Below are positions 39,685 to 52,381 of a stretch of DNA of 64,000 bases, piece by piece. The stretch comes from a virus (Duplodnaviria; Caudoviricetes). The notes under the pieces are model-generated. The model was not told where the DNA came from. It ran no database searches and saw only the letters and a list, made by a program, of their open reading frames with translations. The stretch is from IMG/VR virus record IMGVR_UViG_3300011337_000669; one strand, written 5' to 3'. The first letter of the stretch is position 1, and every line of letters begins with the position of its first letter. Made by a program: the position numbers and the translations under genes.

Positions 39685-40020
39685 TCAATAATCAGTTAAA
39701 ATAACGGAACCATCAGGAGAATACGCTTCAATCCAAAATTGATTGTTATATCGAGGAATTCCCAAATAATATAAAAAATCTATTCCTATATATTGAGATA
39801 TAAGATAATAAGGGTCGAATTCTTTCTCATACATATTTTTTTCAGTAATCGAATCATCATTCAGGTATACGGCAACTTTGTAGTTATCAAGCTTTCTGCG
39901 ACCTTTTCGACCCTCACCGACGTAAGTAATCTCAACACGATCCACCATAGGATAAACATTCTTTAACAAAGAAGAATTCGCAATCTTATTCAACGCCTTT
40001 AATTCTTGATCACTTAACAT
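39685..40020 (-). CDS. hypothetical protein, weakly similar to 45555-45989
   Basis: LLKNVYPMVDRV..FDPY vs LMREFPWIKDV..FDPT; TATTTAT at 40025-40031. Confidence 0.75.
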   Translation of the reverse strand: MLSDQELKALNKIANSSLLKNVYPMVDRVEITYVGEGRKGRRKLDNYKVAVYLNDDSITEKNMYEKEFDPYYLISQYIGIDFLYYLGIPRYNNQFWIEAYSPDGSVILTDY

Positions 40021-40040
40021 ATCAATAAATATCTATTATC

Positions 40041-40090
40041 CAAAAAAGGGGTTGGGGATTAGAACGACCGAAGGGAGAAATCGAATCCGA
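40041..40090. repeat. intergenic repeat, copy 1
   Basis: CAAAAAAGGGGTTGGGGATTAGAACGACCGAAGGGAGAA. Confidence 0.9.
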
Positions 40091-40143
40091 ATATATTTTA
40101 CATACACACAATAATGTACTACATTTGTTCCAAACAAAGAAAA

Positions 40144-40872: not shown

Positions 40873-41460
40873 TTATGGATTTCTTCTTTTATCCCAAATA
40901 TCTACGACATGCAAATACATATCATCAAGGTTCTCTTTTCCTGATTCAATTCTTCGAATAACCTCTTCCTTTGTATAAAGAGTATTTTTAACAATATAGT
41001 CAATCATTTCTTCATCTGTGATTCCTTCAGGTTTTTCGGGTTCAGGAATACACTCGTATTCTCTATCTGATGTGCCAATGTCTTCAATAGATAACCCTGA
41101 CTCTCCAACGATTTGTTCGAACTTAGGAACCATCATTTCATCATACCATTCAAGAATTACATGCAGAACATATGATTTCCTTAAGCTCAATGCTGTTGTA
41201 AGAACATCAACAAAACTTTTGGATATCATCAAATAACCTTGGTCAAATCGACCATCCTCAAAATAATAAATTGCGGTAATTACTTCTTTCCCATCAACAC
41301 ACCAATCCTCACGAAGATTTCCGTAATTACGTGCCTTAGGAGTGACCTTACGTTTGCCACCATCAATATATTGATTTATATATTTGACAATAGCGTTGCT
41401 AATAGACTGGCTACTCCTGTTAAGTTTTCTATATTGTTCTTCTGTTATGATGTATTTCAT
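40873..41460 (-). CDS. leader-family protein (MKYIITEEQY)
   Basis: TATTTAT at 41467-41473. Confidence 0.8.
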   Translation of the reverse strand: MKYIITEEQYRKLNRSSQSISNAIVKYINQYIDGGKRKVTPKARNYGNLREDWCVDGKEVITAIYYFEDGRFDQGYLMISKSFVDVLTTALSLRKSYVLHVILEWYDEMMVPKFEQIVGESGLSIEDIGTSDREYECIPEPEKPEGITDEEMIDYIVKNTLYTKEEVIRRIESGKENLDDMYLHVVDIWDKRRNP

Positions 41461-41482
41461 ATATCAATAAATATCAATTATC

Positions 41483-41535
41483 CCAAAAAGGGGCTGGGGA
41501 TTAGAACGACCGAAGGGAGAACGAACGGATCCGAA
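41483..41535. repeat. intergenic repeat, copy 2
   Basis: CCAAAAAGGGGCTGGGGATTAGAACGACCGAAGGGAGAA. Confidence 0.9.
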
Positions 41536-41581
41536 CAACAATAAAAAAACCCACCTTTATGGGGTGGGGATTAAACTTTAA

Positions 41582-43431: not shown

Positions 43432-43488
43432 ACAGTTATAAATATAATTCATTTATCGTGGAAAATAAAATAATTAGACACAAATATC

Positions 43489-43550
43489 CAAAAAAGGGGT
43501 TGGGGATTAGAACGACCGAAGGGAGAACGGACGGGGCGGTATACGAATAA
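43489..43550. repeat. intergenic repeat, copy 3
   Basis: CAAAAAAGGGGTTGGGGATTAGAACGACCGAAGGGAGAACGGACG..GCGGTATACGAATAAC. Confidence 0.9.
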
Positions 43551-43573
43551 CAACAGATAAGATACGAATATCT

Positions 43574-43906
43574 TTAACCTTTATCCACAGATTTAACAGG
43601 AAGTTTTGTATTTTCCTCAAACCATTTAATAAAAATAGATTTCCAATGTTCACCAAACAAATCCGTGAGATAATCATAAGTTTCGTCAGGAAGATAAACC
43701 TTCCCCCTTTTTTTCAAAGCTTTCCATAAGTAATACATATGGTCGTAAGGATTATCCTCATCCCAAAATAAATAAAGTTCACCATAGTCGTCCTCCAATT
43801 TCTCAATATATTCTTCAGGATTCCATCCATCATAGGGAGTGAGATTAGAATTCAAAAAATCAACTATTACTTCTCCCAATCTACTACTTGTAATAATATA
43901 TTTCAT
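43574..43906 (-). CDS. leader-family small protein (MKYIITSSRL)
   Basis: TATTTAT at 43912-43918; DLFG..FIKWF. Confidence 0.8.
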   Translation of the reverse strand: MKYIITSSRLGEVIVDFLNSNLTPYDGWNPEEYIEKLEDDYGELYLFWDEDNPYDHMYYLWKALKKRGKVYLPDETYDYLTDLFGEHWKSIFIKWFEENTKLPVKSVDKG

Positions 43907-43930
43907 AATTAATAAATACCCAAAACTTCC

Positions 43931-43992
43931 CAAAAAGGGGATGGGGATTCTCACGACCGAAGGGAGAACGGACGAAGCGGTATACGAATAAC
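43931..43992. repeat. intergenic repeat, copy 4
   Basis: CAAAAAGGGGATGGGGATTCTCACGACCGAAGGGAGAACGGACGAAGCGGTATACGAATAAC. Confidence 0.88.
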
Positions 43993-44735: not shown

Positions 44736-45554
44736 ATAATCAAATATAGGGGATTATCCCCCAAAAATAAATAACTATATAATCAATAGGATTACCTTTT
44801 TTATGAAAAATTTTCCAAAAATTCTAAAAAGGATATACACACCTTTTTCAAACAAGGGGTCGTGTTTATAGAAACTAACACCCCACAATATACGGTAGGG
44901 GGAGAAACCCAAAAAAGGTCATTTTTAGCTGCAAAATTTTATTCGGGTAACATAGGGAATTGATGACCATAATATGACATTCTGACAGGAGGGAAGGGGG
45001 GATTCCTATACGAAGGACAGAAAGACAGGAGGGGGGAGGGGGGTATATCGTATGCCAAACCCCTCCCATCTAATATATTTATTTATCCCCCCCTCCCTAT
45101 GAGTTATCCACCTCCTTATAGTCGGGGATAAATACTTATCCACAAGATATACATTGTTAGCACAATGGTTCCCGTATTCGACCCCGACCATAGATGTGTA
45201 TAAGTTGTGGAGAAATAAATGGTGATATGTTTGGTGGGGTGAATAATAATGACGACCTTTATGTACTTGATGTTCTGTCGTACGGATAGATAAGGAGGCG
45301 GGGTAAGTAATTACTCGGGAGAGTGGACTCCGACACACCCCAAACAAAATAATATATTGTGGATAAGTGGTATGACAGATAGTCAATAATAAAAAGTACG
45401 TAGGGGTAACCGAAGAATGTTCTGTATAACAATACAATTATATCTTGGAATCCTCTGTCCTATTGATCATAATCCAGATTATATAACATGGTTCTATAAC
45501 TCCCCCAACCTTTTATTGTATTATATGGGGAATGTTTAGATGACCCTTAAAAAT

Positions 45555-45989
45555 TTAGATAGACATGAAAGGTTGTTCCCCTGGCTTACGATTGATATGC
45601 CATGTCCCCAATTCAATATTACGATTACCGAACTTAAACTCATCAGGAAGGGTGGGGTTCTCAGATACATCTTTGATGGTTCTCCTTATATCATCACGGA
45701 CTCTCTTGTATTCCTCATACTCCATATCGTTAATAAGGTTGGGGTACGAATAGTCAATATACTTCCCCTCATCAACCAACTCCTGAATCCATTTCTTCGT
45801 CTCATGACCATAAGCCTCAGAAAACTCGGTGGGGTCGAACTCAAAGTTCAAAAAAATTGTTGTATAAAGATCCAAGTCCTCCTGTCTAACGAACACATCC
45901 TTAATCCATGGGAACTCCCTCATCAATGCTCTCTTAATCAACTTGAAAGCATAAACGTTATATATATCTTCAGGTGTTGTCTTCCCCAT
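45555..45989 (-). CDS. hypothetical protein
   Basis: ORF track; TATTTAT at 46006-46012. Confidence 0.8.
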   Translation of the reverse strand: MGKTTPEDIYNVYAFKLIKRALMREFPWIKDVFVRQEDLDLYTTIFLNFEFDPTEFSEAYGHETKKWIQELVDEGKYIDYSYPNLINDMEYEEYKRVRDDIRRTIKDVSENPTLPDEFKFGNRNIELGTWHINRKPGEQPFMSI

Positions 45990-46003
45990 GTCATTACCGT
46001 TTA

Positions 46004-46258
46004 TTATAAATACTCAGCCTTTATCATCTTTTGACATACCTCCACAATTTCCTTGGGGATTATCTCATAATTACTCACCTCATATAATCTCTCAATCTTC
46101 GCATCAACACATACCCAAGCATCCATACTCACAGGCTTACGTTGAAATGTTCTCTTCGCTCTCTCAAAATACAGAGAACCAACCTCTTGATCATTGAAGG
46201 AAATAATGAACCGTATCTTATCATCCACCTTCTCCATTATATATACTAAATCTATCAT
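46004..46258 (-). CDS. hypothetical protein
   Basis: ORF track; start codon overlaps a DnaA box. Confidence 0.65.
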   Translation of the reverse strand: MIDLVYIMEKVDDKIRFIISFNDQEVGSLYFERAKRTFQRKPVSMDAWVCVDAKIERLYEVSNYEIIPKEIVEVCQKMIKAEYL

Positions 46259-47034
46259 GTGGATAAATATACATTCGGAACATATAAAAATAAAGGAGAA
46301 TCATTGTGCCAACAATGTATCCACACACTGACATTCTGTCTGTAGGGGGCAACATGGTGAATACCGACCGAAGGTTGGGGAAAACTTTTTCCATTGTGGA
46401 TAAATAAATAGGGGGAAAAACTTGACTTTGTCATAATGTCAGGGGAGCGTTACATGGGGGATAATCCCTTTGAGGGGTTTTGGGTCCCCCACTCTTTACC
46501 ACTTTCCCCCACCATTAGTACTGAATTCATGGCTGGTTATAGTGTAGTGACCACTTTTTTCCCCCTGACGATAGTGTGAAGACCATATTTTTACTATACG
46601 TAAAACCTAGCAAAAAAAGGAATAGTAAGTGTAACCCCGCGTGAGTGAACGTAGTGAACCTTTAACCCCCCCTTCAACGAATCCCATAGGTTATTATGGT
46701 TCATATGACCTGACTATTATTGTCCCCTTCAACGACATATCGTAGATGGTGGGAGAATGTGGGAGTTATACCTGATGGGGTTTAATTGTTTACCGAAGGT
46801 ATTGTTTTGTACCCCATAGGGTATAGGACTATATGTGAAATAATATATGTTAATTCGGATCCCCACCGAATAGGTGGTGCTTATTTAACATCTCACCTTC
46901 ACACAATATCACCATGTCATTCGATGTCCTGTCATTTGGCGGGGGACAATAGTTAGGCGGGGACAGTTTGTCCCCATGTATAACTCTCCAAATGTGTGTT
47001 AAAAAATGAGTTTTGGAAGATTATACAACAAGAG

Positions 47035-47129
47035 AGAGAATGAGGAATTAATGAACGAATGAAATGGTCGGGAACACGACAGTGTTCCTCATCCGACCAT
47101 GGAGTGAGTGAATTAATTCCTCATTCTCT
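47035..47129. repeat. long nested palindrome
   Basis: Perfect 18-bp outer stem, 11x11 purine-rich internal loop, 8-bp and 6-bp inner stems. Confidence 0.85.
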
Positions 47130-47172
47130 ATAATATAAAAACCCCCACCTTTTGGGTGAGGGGATAAAATCT

Positions 47173-47829
47173 TTAGAAACTATAGCCGATTCCGACATTA
47201 ACTGAAGTAAATTTAGAAATAACCAATCCACCTCGGAAGATAAACGAGTCACTTAAATTCTTCATGTATCCGAAAGTAACATAAGGAGTTATTTTCCTCT
47301 CGTTAATATCTTTCGATTCTACATATGTTTCGATATTCGGAGTTGGATTGGTAGAAAGTTTAGGAACCGAAGGTGTTCCAATCGACCCTATCGACCCTTG
47401 GGTAGAAACATAAGTAACATTACTTTGTTGAGGTGTAACTATTTTCTCCATTAAAACATTCTCGAGGCCTAAAGAAAGGCTGGATTGTATTCCCCCTCCT
47501 ATATAAATTCCTTCTTTGTTTTTATAAAACATACCGAAACTATTGGAAACTCCACGCTCAATCCATTTTCCTACTTTTCCATTGATGTAATTTTGTGGAT
47601 AAATGTCATTCGTGACAGTCGCAGTCCTGATATATTCAAAACCAATGTTGTTATACTCTACCCATCCACCATAAGCAAAACCAGTAGACCAATTCATATC
47701 CCCCATCATAAGTGGGGCACCAAACATAGGCCCGATAGAACCTACAGGTGATACAGTAACTGAATGTTGTTGAGAAAAGGATGCGATGGTGATAAACCAT
47801 AGAAGTACAATAAAGAAAATCTTTTTCAT
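47173..47829 (-). CDS. predicted outer-membrane beta-barrel protein
   Basis: Sec signal MKKIFFIVLLWFITIASFS; alternating aromatic/Gly strands; C-terminal VNVGIGYSF. Confidence 0.75.
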   Translation of the reverse strand: MKKIFFIVLLWFITIASFSQQHSVTVSPVGSIGPMFGAPLMMGDMNWSTGFAYGGWVEYNNIGFEYIRTATVTNDIYPQNYINGKVGKWIERGVSNSFGMFYKNKEGIYIGGGIQSSLSLGLENVLMEKIVTPQQSNVTYVSTQGSIGSIGTPSVPKLSTNPTPNIETYVESKDINERKITPYVTFGYMKNLSDSFIFRGGLVISKFTSVNVGIGYSF

Positions 47830-49802: not shown

Positions 49803-49822
49803 TTTTATCGATATTTATTACT

Positions 49823-52325: not shown

Positions 52326-52381
52326 ATAGATAAATATAAAGAAAATGAAAAACCCCCACCTTTTGGGTGAGGGTTTCATTA

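What the first reader, a model, noticed from the sequence alone, without database searches (positions are those of the whole stretch)
44833..46403. Bipartite DnaA-box cluster in a phage: host-DnaA-dependent origin or DnaA sink
Seen: four exact TTATCCACA boxes (45136, 45358, 46258, 46395), one TTATACACA (45195) and six one-mismatch boxes within ~1.6 kb, in two non-coding blocks flanking two small genes. I noticed only two other exact copies in the window (43581, 47594), both nearby. Rough estimate assuming about two-thirds AT: one exact copy per ~80 kb on both strands. These are the largest gene-free stretches in the window. Established: TTATCCACA is the high-affinity bacterial DnaA box; clusters mark oriC and datA/DARS loci; large lytic phages usually use their own initiation. 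Inference: the phage either initiates replication with host (or its own) DnaA, or titrates DnaA to block host replication.
Basis: partly seen in the sequence, partly recalled or inferred. Interest (0 to 1): 0.8.

Follow-up and report, generated by a model that had tools for sequence, protein, structure and literature searches.

The report
Conserved host DnaA-box array in huge phages
A family of ~300-kb freshwater phages keeps a two-part cluster of perfect binding sites for the bacterial replication initiator DnaA around a small conserved operon, although the phage has no DnaA gene, so it very probably recruits the host's DnaA; whether this starts replication, controls the operon, or both is still open.

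Summary
All six exact TTATCCACA copies in the 64-kb window lie within 4 kb. Four sit in the two largest gene-free blocks (44736-45554 and 46259-47172), against 0.06 expected from local composition. The blocks flank an 84-aa and a 144-aa gene on the minus strand.

The array is conserved. About 13 related contigs from at least 8 samples keep boxes on both sides of the same gene pair. This holds even where the 144-aa protein is only 48-50% identical. Most relatives have four boxes upstream (gaps of 10, 29 and 29 nt) and three downstream (gaps of 27 and 9 nt). In a complete 326-kb relative, 6 of 11 exact boxes lie in this 1.06 kb. That relative has no DnaA homologue, but it does have a DnaB-like helicase and a family-B polymerase.

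Box 4 overlaps the phage promoter-like motif TATTTAT and the start codon of the 84-aa gene. GC skew shows no inflection at the locus, no clear unwinding element is present, and there is no evidence for a structured RNA.

Verdict: this is a host-DnaA-binding array (about 0.8). Its role is unresolved: oriC-like bipartite origin (0.4), DnaA-gated operon switch (0.27), or DnaA sink and others. The closest precedent is the DnaA-box modules of T5-like phages. It is a new variant of a known kind.

The parts
47035..47129 (-). 95-nt imperfect hairpin at the outer edge of the upstream block. It lies just after the terminator (47142-47162) of the 218-aa gene.
   Evidence: Inverted repeat I1, 37-nt arms, 78% complementary. 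Terminator-like site. The sequence is conserved in relatives (93% identity with L013).
46404..47034 (-). Conserved non-coding leader of the upstream block. It holds the direct repeat CGTTGAAGGGG twice (46669, 46724), a G5...C5 hairpin, the palindrome GGGATTATCCC (46458-46468) and CTGACAT (46436-46442).
   Evidence: Alignment of 11 relatives. RNAalifold found 0 compensatory pairs.
46395..46403 (-). Box 1, exact TTATCCACA. It is preceded by TATTTATTTAT (46400-46410) and followed by the ATG of a micro-ORF.
   Evidence: The box is present in all relatives. The TATTTAT context is present in only 5 of 11.
46355..46387 (-). Remnant of box 2. Relatives have TTTTCCACA, 10 nt after box 1. In this phage a 21-nt insertion splits it.
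   Evidence: Alignment. Box map of relatives.
46317..46325 (+). Box 3, inverted. Here it reads GTATCCACA because a second 21-nt insertion abuts it. Relatives have the exact box. The 13-mer TGACATTCTGTCT lies next to it at 46329-46341.
   Evidence: (D3).
46258..46266 (-). Box 4, exact. Its first four bases are the end of the promoter-like motif TATTTAT (46263-46269). Its last base is the A of the start codon of the 84-aa gene. The local duplex is among the least stable in the window.
   Evidence: The 40-mer at 46236 is at the 98.9th percentile for instability. Relatives have TTATCCACA or TTATCAACA here.
46004..46258 (-). Conserved 84-aa gene (P0002). The predicted fold is a four-stranded sheet plus a C-terminal helix. 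No known family matches.
   Evidence: No Pfam or PHROG match.
45555..45989 (-). Conserved 144-aa gene (P0001). The model is confident (pLDDT 92) but has no structural or family match.
   Evidence: A 174-nt contig identical to 45737-45910 occurs in a metatranscriptome run.
45367..45554 (-). Conserved ~190-nt non-coding stretch between the operon's stop codon and box 5.
   Evidence: Alignment. In L012, L014 and L018 a 100-aa ORF is inserted inside this stretch, and in L011 a larger insertion.
45358..45366 (-). Box 5, exact. It is the first box of the downstream cluster.
45112..45341 (.). Lineage-specific ~230-nt insertion (shared in part with L011). It carries TTCTCCACA (45206), box 6 as TTATACACA (45195), the palindrome CATTGTTAGCACAATG (45153-45168) and an extra exact box at 45136-45144(+).
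   Evidence: (I3, I10). A relative's contig skips 45111-45342.
45104..45112 (+). Box 7, inverted. It reads TTATCCACC here and is exact in relatives.
45076..45087 (+). TATTTATTTATC, a perfect inverted copy of the motif in front of box 1. It points inward, antisense to the operon, and lies 17 nt before box 7. It is conserved in all relatives.
44736..45075 (.). Outer part of the downstream block. It holds runs of C and G able to form hairpins, the 13-mer TGACATTCTGACA (44975-44987), the palindrome GGGATTATCCC (44750-44760), and the AT-rich promoter region of the next gene.
43581..43589 (+). Outlying exact box inside the 3' end of a 126-aa ORF. It is not conserved in relatives.
47594..47602 (-). 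Outlying exact box inside the 218-aa gene. It is shared only with near-identical contigs and L011.

Best explanation
The two non-coding blocks form a conserved bipartite array of binding sites for the host's DnaA protein. The phage has no DnaA of its own. 

Shown: the sites are the dominant repeated word of the locus. They match the DnaA consensus exactly. Their variants stay mostly within TT[A/T]TNCACA, or are TTATCAACA. They cluster only here in a 326-kb genome. They keep their number, orientation and spacing across the family. 

Inferred: host DnaA loads on the four upstream and three downstream boxes. The two DnaA-loaded clusters contact each other across about 1 kb and loop out the 84-aa/144-aa operon. 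This is how the upstream and downstream box clusters of bipartite bacterial origins (B. subtilis, H. pylori) behave around dnaA. 

My preferred reading is that this complex is the phage's oriC-like start site for theta replication. DnaA would open the weakly paired stretch around boxes 3-4, or the AT-rich 20-mer beside box 7. The phage's DnaB-like helicase and family-B polymerase would then take over. Box 4 lies on the promoter-like motif and the start codon, so the same occupancy would also throttle the enclosed operon, as DnaA does at its own promoter. 

Confidence that the boxes bind host DnaA is about 0.8. Confidence that the locus is a replication origin is 0.4.
For: The clustering is far above chance, both in the window and against the local composition.

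In the complete relative G001, 6 of 11 exact boxes fall in 1.06 kb of 326 kb. No simulation out of 200,000 gave that clustering, and the reversed control word occurs twice. The same pattern holds in G002, G003, G004 and G007.

The architecture of 4 + 3 boxes is conserved in about 13 contigs, including those with only 48-50% identity in the enclosed protein. Box columns are more conserved than the other non-coding columns: 0.95 versus 0.79-0.85, and 52-61% versus 31-36% invariant.

Repeated 10-mers are 5 times over the null, and the ones shared by the window and G001 are mostly extended boxes.

No DnaA homologue was found in G001-G005. A DnaB-like helicase and PolB are present. No DnaC-type loader reached the family cut-off.

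The same pair, TTATCCACA-N10-TTTTCCACA followed by an inverted box, occurs in Bacteroidota chromosomes. The window carries Bacteroidota-type promoters at 3 times expectation.

The locus comprises the two largest gene-free blocks in the window. Bona fide origins work with two box sub-regions that act through a loop (PMC6669920, read).
Against: Cumulative GC skew shows no inflection at the locus, in the window or in G001. The orientation-corrected third-position skew changes slope 15-25 kb away, not at the locus.

The blocks are richer in GC (0.39-0.40) and more stable than the genome average (0.33). I found no long AT-rich unwinding element and no convincing DnaA-trio run; there are only two short weak spots.

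The replication genes lie 150-190 kb away in G001.

The only well-described conserved DnaA-box array in a virulent phage (T5) is thought not to be an origin (bioRxiv 10.1101/866236).

The locus is an indel hot spot, and two boxes are disrupted in this very phage.

DnaA binding itself is untested, and the host is unknown.
Confidence: 0.4

Rival explanations
1. A DnaA-gated transcription switch with no origin function. Host DnaA bound at boxes 1-4, reinforced by looping to boxes 5-7, represses or times the TATTTAT-type promoter of the 84-aa/144-aa operon. It would also control an inward-facing antisense promoter beside box 7. Each new phage genome adds 7-8 high-affinity sites. The fixed DnaA pool would therefore be titrated as the phage replicates, and the operon would switch on at high copy number.
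For: Box 4 shares four bases with TATTTAT and one base with the ATG in all relatives. TATTTAT is 10-fold enriched upstream of genes, and the ATG typically follows 4-6 nt after it. An inverted TATTTATTTATC next to box 7 is conserved in all relatives. In Sphingobacteriales a three-box module with the same first pair fills the ftsA-ftsZ spacer, so promoter-proximal DnaA-box triplets exist in the likely host phylum. The 144-aa gene is represented in a metatranscriptome contig.
Against: Seven boxes plus about 1.7 kb of conserved non-coding DNA is a lot of control for two small genes. The downstream cluster sits at no sense-strand promoter. The TATTTAT context of box 1 is present in only 5 of 11 relatives. 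That TATTTAT is a promoter is itself an inference. A distant homologue of the 144-aa gene (L001, 31% identity) has no boxes on its 65-kb contig fragment.
Confidence: 0.27
2. A DnaA sink, like datA. The array has no role in cis for the phage. It only soaks up or inactivates host DnaA as phage genomes multiply, which blocks new rounds of host chromosome replication.
For: There are seven to eight near-consensus boxes per genome, the phage has no DnaA, and the cluster is unique and conserved.
Against: A pure sink needs neither fixed spacing, orientation and a split into two clusters around one operon, nor a box placed exactly on a start codon. Scattered boxes would do as well. Outside the locus the box is not enriched: 5 in 325 kb against 2 for the control word.
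Confidence: 0.1
3. The sites are operators of a phage-encoded protein, for example the 84-aa or 144-aa product. The operators would flank their own genes in the way lambda OL and OR flank cI. The identity with the DnaA box would then be coincidence.
For: The gene pair is always enclosed by the two clusters. Neither protein has a known fold or family, so a DNA-binding role cannot be excluded. The only target locus in the genome is next to these genes.
Against: The chance that an unrelated protein's asymmetric 9-mer equals the full DnaA consensus is about 1 in 10^5. Two of the recurring variants (TTTTCCACA, TTATACACA) fit the DnaA rule TT[A/T]TNCACA, and TTATCAACA is the commonest variant box in the T5 modules. 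Neither model shows a recognised DNA-binding fold. The same box pair is used in Bacteroidota chromosomes.
Confidence: 0.1
4. A genome-end or entry element of the T5 kind. The array would lie at or near the physical ends of the packaged DNA and hold the incoming DNA on membrane-bound DnaA, for injection pause, anchoring or end protection.
For: T5-like phages keep 8 DnaA boxes in two inverted modules in a large untranslated, repeat-rich region near the genome end. Many contigs of this family end inside the box clusters. An unrelated group of ~42-kb viral contigs has the same box pair next to the terminase gene, and several of those contigs end there.
Against: The contig end points differ from one contig to the next, and several contigs run straight through the locus. 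The clusters are indel hot spots, which by itself breaks metagenome assemblies. The box spacing does not match the T5 pairs, which are 3 bp apart. There is no sequence similarity to any deposited phage. The large terminase gene is 95 kb away in G001.
Confidence: 0.07
5. The blocks are genes for structured non-coding RNAs, and the boxes are incidental or regulate them.
For: The blocks are richer in GC than the genome. They are conserved well beyond the boxes and contain hairpins whose loops vary while the stems stay.
Against: No Rfam family matched, even at E up to 5. RNAalifold found 0 compensatory pairs among 65, with a covariation term of -0.74. ORF and 230-nt insertions are tolerated inside the downstream block. 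The relatives are also 75-93% identical in coding DNA, so the conservation is not exceptional.
Confidence: 0.05

Closest known systems
DnaA-box modules (IRC-spacer-IRD and IRD'-spacer-IRC') in the untranslated injection-stop region of T5-like phages (Davison, bioRxiv 10.1101/866236; first noted 1987)
   Same: Both are virulent phages without a dnaA gene. Both have two clusters of consensus and near-consensus DnaA boxes, with TTATCAACA as a common variant. The clusters are in inverted arrangement, 1-4 kb apart, in the largest non-coding, repeat- and palindrome-rich region. Both arrays are conserved across relatives. In neither case has DnaA binding been shown.
   Different: T5 boxes come in pairs 3 bp apart inside defined inverted repeats with 52-bp spacers. 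Here the gaps are 10, 29, 29 and 27, 9 nt. The T5 modules lie in the terminal repeat; here the DNA ends are unknown. There is no sequence similarity. Here one box sits on a promoter-like motif and start codon, and the clusters enclose a conserved operon.
Bipartite bacterial origins with DnaA-box clusters on both sides of a gene (B. subtilis incA/B-dnaA-incC, H. pylori oriC1-dnaA-oriC2), and the two-sub-region loop model of incC (PMC6669920)
   Same: Two box clusters in mixed orientation lie about 1 kb apart and bracket a gene whose promoter lies among the upstream boxes. In the bacterial cases the clusters cooperate through a DnaA-mediated loop.
   Different: The enclosed genes are not dnaA, and the phage has no dnaA at all. 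No clear DnaA-trio or AT-rich unwinding element was found, and there is no skew switch. Whether the locus supports replication is untested.
Plasmid and prophage origins that combine host DnaA boxes with their own initiator (P1 oriR, F oriS, pSC101, RK2 oriV)
   Same: A mobile replicon borrows host DnaA through consensus boxes placed at the edges of its origin.
   Different: Those origins have iterons and an adjacent Rep gene. Here no repeat family other than the boxes stands out. The neighbouring proteins show no Rep-like or DNA-binding fold.
datA / DARS and the DnaA-box clusters of B. subtilis (non-origin DnaA-binding loci), and DnaA-controlled promoters (dnaA, nrd)
   Same: A cluster of high-affinity boxes lies outside a chromosomal origin. 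One box overlaps a promoter.
   Different: The array is carried by a virus. The geometry differs from datA and DARS. Any effect on the DnaA nucleotide state or on transcription is untested.

Membership tests
DnaA-dependent origin of the oriC type (bipartite form) | Cluster of DnaA boxes fitting TT[A/T]TNCACA, beyond chance | tested here: met
DnaA-dependent origin of the oriC type (bipartite form) | AT-rich unwinding element and/or DnaA-trios next to a box | tested here: inconclusive
   The locus is richer in GC and more stable than the genome. Only two short unstable spots were found, at 46236 and 44764, plus an AT-rich 20-mer beside box 7. The published trio rule (NAN three or more times, within 16 bp; PMC8287927) is too permissive in DNA this AT-rich to be informative.
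DnaA-dependent origin of the oriC type (bipartite form) | Strand-composition switch at the site | tested here: not met
   No inflection was seen at the locus in the window or in G001, before or after correcting for gene orientation. This is weak evidence, because phages that replicate largely by recombination show no such switch.
DnaA-dependent origin of the oriC type (bipartite form) | A DnaA protein is available | tested here: inconclusive
   No phage DnaA was found in G001-G005. The host's DnaA is presumed, but the host is not identified.
DnaA-dependent origin of the oriC type (bipartite form) | Supports initiation of replication | not testable with these tools
   Needs marker-frequency analysis, 2D gels or a replication assay.
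T5-type DnaA-box repeat module | Conserved DnaA and variant boxes in a large untranslated region in all relatives | tested here: met
T5-type DnaA-box repeat module | Boxes in pairs 3 bp apart inside the IRC/IRD inverted repeats with a 52-bp spacer | tested here: not met
   The gaps here are 10, 29, 29 and 27, 9 nt, compared with the description read.
T5-type DnaA-box repeat module | Located in the long terminal repeat (first DNA to enter) | not testable with these tools
   The physical ends are unknown. G001 is a circular assembly with a 131-nt overlap.
T5-type DnaA-box repeat module | Sequence homology to the T5 module | tested here: not met
   No blastn match of the locus to 50,697 phage records.
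Iteron-type plasmid/phage origin | Iterons plus an adjacent initiator (Rep) gene | tested here: inconclusive
   No conserved repeat family other than the boxes was found. The two enclosed proteins have no family or fold match, which does not exclude a new initiator.
DnaA-regulated promoter | A box overlaps the core promoter or transcript start | tested here: inconclusive
   Box 4 overlaps the enriched TATTTAT motif and the ATG. That the motif is a promoter has not been shown.
Structured non-coding RNA | Match to a known family, or covariation supporting a fold | tested here: not met
   Power is low because the sequences are similar.

The most novel reading that the evidence does not exclude
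A virulent ~300-kb phage of Bacteroidota that encodes its own helicase and polymerase, but no initiator, starts replication at an oriC-like bipartite origin opened by the host's DnaA. The same array would work as a copy-number clock: as phage genomes multiply they titrate DnaA away from box 4 and switch on the enclosed operon.
Probability: 0.3. Interest if true: 0.75.

Novelty: new variant of a known kind. Interest (0 to 1): 0.6.

Why it matters
How huge phages begin replication is largely unknown. To my knowledge, no virulent phage has been shown to depend on host DnaA. This locus gives a precise, conserved and unique target of seven boxes with fixed geometry in at least 13 genomes. It can be tested by DnaA binding assays, by read-depth profiling and by box mutations. 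Together with the T5 modules and a second group of ~42-kb viral contigs seen here, it suggests that DnaA-box arrays recur in phages without a dnaA gene. If so, host DnaA would be a factor that phages commonly read or exploit. The box pair shared with Bacteroidota chromosomes also offers a handle on host assignment for an uncultured phage family.

Tried and rejected
Whole genome of the window: none is held. The exact locus sequence is absent from IMG/VR. I therefore used the complete relative G001 as a proxy.

Similarity to deposited phages: none.

GC skew: raw and orientation-corrected skew were uninformative at the locus.

Rfam, at gathering threshold and at E up to 5: nothing in the locus.

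RNAalifold on the upstream block: no covariation.

RNA runs: one metatranscriptome holds an exact 174-nt piece of the 144-aa gene. The other three 'RNA?' runs carry 35-47-kb contigs and are probably DNA. The lack of cover on the blocks says nothing.

Fold searches for the 144-aa protein (PDB by Foldseek, VIA-align wide, AFDB clusters, BFVD) and for the 84-aa protein (PDB): no match above noise. The best results were Z 4.8 and E 0.1. The Atlas feature search gave only unnamed viral clusters and a weak LPD29 lead at 0.87.

Weak Bac_DnaA_C hit in G003 (E 0.018): the 402-aa ORF has no Pfam or PHROG family, so I treat the hit as noise.

DnaC/IstB-type loader: only a P-loop-level hit below the family cut-off.

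Pac-site idea: the large terminase gene is 95 kb from the locus in G001.

Host oriC capture: the genome-contig scan with the box pair gave 120 or more loci across many phyla. None shows DNA similarity to the phage locus.

Physical-end idea from contig ends: the end points differ, and other contigs span the locus.

Invertible-segment idea: the flanking inverted repeats are short, and no strand-changing joints were seen.

Full report
WHAT THE WINDOW IS. The 64-kb window has many small genes and 33% GC. It encodes a thymidylate synthase, a lysin with a peptidoglycan-binding domain, HNH and endonuclease VII-type homing nucleases, a DNA methyltransferase and tRNAs. It aligns collinearly, at 75-93% nucleotide identity, with 172-258 kb of a 326,291-bp IMG/VR contig, G001. 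G001 is rated 100% complete and closes on itself with a 131-nt overlap. G001 encodes a T4-type large terminase, a DnaB-like helicase and a family-B DNA polymerase. The object is therefore a huge phage from freshwater and river metagenomes. The Bacteroidota promoter pattern TTTG-N17-21-TAnnTTTG is 3 times over expectation in the window, which fits a Bacteroidota host.

THE OBSERVATION. Exact TTATCCACA occurs six times in the window, all between 43581 and 47602. The expectation is 1.2, and no shuffle out of 100 reached six. Four copies lie in the two gene-free blocks, 44736-45554 and 46259-47172. Against dinucleotide shuffles of this 2.4-kb locus alone the expectation is 0.064 exact copies. For boxes with at most one mismatch it is 1.37 against 8 observed, and none of 3000 shuffles reached 8. 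No other complex 9-mer has all of six copies inside 4.1 kb. The blocks are the two largest gaps in a crude gene map. They flank an 84-aa and a 144-aa gene on the minus strand.

CONSERVATION. The 144-aa protein has about 100 homologues in public metagenomes. I fetched its surroundings from JGI, ENA, NCBI, Logan and IMG/VR. Every close relative has exact boxes on both sides of the gene pair and almost none elsewhere in the 20 kb fetched. This includes L013 and L019, whose 144-aa protein is only 48-50% identical to the window's.

The usual layout, read in the direction of the genes, starts with the upstream cluster. Box 1 is TTATCCACA. After 10 nt comes box 2, TTTTCCACA. After 29 nt comes box 3, inverted. 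After 29 nt comes box 4, TTATC[C/A]ACA, which runs into the ATG of the 84-aa gene. About 190 nt past the stop codon of the 144-aa gene comes the downstream cluster. Box 5 is followed after 27 nt by box 6, and after 9 nt by box 7, inverted.

In G001, 6 of the 11 exact copies in 326 kb lie within 1.06 kb. No simulation out of 200,000 gave that, and the reversed control word occurs twice. G002, G003, G004 and G007 show the same pattern. Box columns are more conserved than the rest of the non-coding alignment.

This phage is a derived variant. Two 21-nt insertions split box 2 and alter box 3. A ~230-nt insertion between boxes 5 and 7 brings extra boxes and a palindrome. A distant homologue of the 144-aa gene (L001, 31% identity) has no boxes on its 65-kb contig fragment. 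The link between gene and boxes therefore holds for this clade and is not universal.

WHO BINDS. No Bac_DnaA or Bac_DnaA_C domain was found in G001 or in four partial relatives, although the same search found them in the control genomes. One weak hit did not hold up. No large ORF in the window is DnaA-like.

The extended box is the main repeated word shared by the window and G001. Two recurring variants, TTTTCCACA and TTATACACA, fit the DnaA rule TT[A/T]TNCACA. TTATCAACA is the commonest variant box in the T5 modules.

The pair TTATCCACA-N10-TTTTCCACA followed by an inverted box also occurs in Bacteroidota chromosomes. Examples are a box-dense spacer between convergent genes in Pedobacter and the ftsA-ftsZ spacer of Sphingobacteriales.

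For an unrelated phage protein, a binding site that equals the full nine-base DnaA consensus would be a coincidence of about 1 in 10^5. I therefore put about 0.8 on binding by host DnaA. This is an inference; nothing here measures binding.

WHAT IT DOES. Three readings remain, and they are not exclusive.

(a) Origin. For it: the cluster is unique in the genome and occupies the largest non-coding DNA. It has the bipartite layout of ancestral bacterial origins, where two box sub-regions cooperate through a loop (PMC6669920). The phage has a helicase and a polymerase, but no recognisable initiator or DnaC-type loader. Against it: there is no skew inflection. The blocks are richer in GC and more stable than the genome, with only short weak spots at boxes 3-4 and beside box 7. 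The replication genes are 150-190 kb away. In T5, the conserved boxes are thought not to be the origin.

(b) DnaA-gated operon. The motif [A/G]TATTTAT is 10-fold enriched upstream of genes, and the ATG usually follows 4-6 nt after it. Box 4 is built from the last four bases of that motif, a CCAC (or CAAC) spacer and the A of the ATG. An inverted TATTTATTTATC beside box 7 is conserved in all relatives and points inward. DnaA bound here would be placed to repress or time sense and antisense transcription. Titration by multiplying phage genomes could then act as a copy-number clock. This step is pure inference.

(c) DnaA sink. This is possible, but it does not explain the fixed geometry.

I commit to (a), with (b) as a built-in side effect, at 0.4. 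I give (b) alone 0.27.

OTHER RIVALS.

Structured RNA. There is no Rfam match and no covariation. Insertions of an ORF or of 230 nt are tolerated. The blocks are not more conserved than much of the coding DNA.

Operators of the enclosed proteins. Both proteins fold confidently or fairly well, but they match no family or fold, DNA-binding or otherwise.

Genome-end element of the T5 kind. Many contigs of this family end inside the clusters. However, the end points differ, other contigs run through the locus, and the clusters are indel hot spots, which would break assemblies on their own. The terminase gene is 95 kb away.

COMPARISON WITH WHAT IS KNOWN. The nearest precedent is the pair of DnaA-box modules in the untranslated injection-stop region of T5-like phages (bioRxiv 10.1101/866236). 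It shares the general picture: a virulent phage, no dnaA gene, two inverted clusters, repeat-rich non-coding DNA, and conservation across relatives. It differs in box spacing, sequence and genomic setting. Bipartite oriC and P1-type plasmid origins are functional analogues, but their defining extras were not found: an enclosed dnaA gene, trios and an unwinding element, iterons and a Rep gene. I therefore class this as a new variant of a known kind, namely DnaA-box arrays in phages. It has a well-defined architecture and an open function.

EARLIER NOTES OF THIS SCAN. Other first readers flagged the same stretch (notes withheld). They also flagged the 13-mer next to the boxes, the 95-nt hairpin and the intergenic repeat; I saw all three myself. 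On other DNA, follow-up agents described a T5-type DnaA/LexA-box module, a jumbo-phage genome end with MetJ-box arrays, and an origin island whose sister phages carry DnaA boxes. These notes led me to take the genome-end rival seriously. I used them only as leads.

Noticed in passing
whole window, e.g. 40025-40031(-), 41467-41473(-), 49812-49818(+), 52330-52336(-): The motif [A/G]TATTTAT[T/A] lies upstream of about a third of genes (36 of 102, 10 times background). The ATG follows only 4-6 nt after it in 24 of 49 motif-gene pairs. It looks like a phage-specific promoter giving leaderless or very short-leader mRNAs.
   Followed up: partly
40018-40093, 41456-41569, 43474-43553, 43901-43992: A ~73-nt intergenic repeat lies upstream of successive minus-strand genes. 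Many further copies occur at 231-239 kb of the relative G001. It divides a variable region into gene cassettes, including a methyltransferase/nuclease pair and homing nucleases.
   Followed up: partly
L079:2366-2405 (also L047, L086): In Sphingobacteriales genomes a three-box DnaA module (TTATCCACA-N10-TTTTCCACA-N10/11-TGTGGAAAA) fills the 40-nt spacer between ftsA and ftsZ. This hints at DnaA control of ftsZ in that order.
   Followed up: partly
L175:7265-7367 (also L158, L166, L169, L172-L174, L178, L181): A second, unrelated group of ~42-kb viral contigs (GC 56%) carries the same box pair, plus a third exact box 94 nt on. It lies about 340 nt upstream of the large-terminase gene next to the portal gene. 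Several of these contigs end within 30-200 nt of the boxes, which may be the cos/pac end.
   Followed up: partly
L015, L017, L014, L003, L165, L168 (contig ends): Contigs of this phage family end inside or within ~1 kb of the box clusters far more often than chance would give. The end points differ. The clusters are hot spots of insertions: 21 nt, ~40 nt, 230 nt and a 100-aa ORF.
   Followed up: partly
44750-44760 and 46458-46468; 45153-45168 and 46302-46317: Each block holds one copy of the palindrome GGGATTATCCC, in inverted arrangement. This phage also has one copy per block of CATTGTT(A/G)GCACAATG beside a DnaA box. These may be sites for a second, dimeric protein.
   Followed up: no
46342-46394(-): A micro-ORF (MEKVFH...) starts right after box 1. 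In most relatives it stops in the TAA of box 3 after 17 codons. In L011 it is fused in frame to the 84-aa gene.
   Followed up: no
44990-45075: A dense series of C and G runs lies between box 7 and the 13-mer. This phage and L011 have G-run...C-run where the other relatives have C-run...G-run. Hairpin potential is kept while the sequence is swapped.
   Followed up: no
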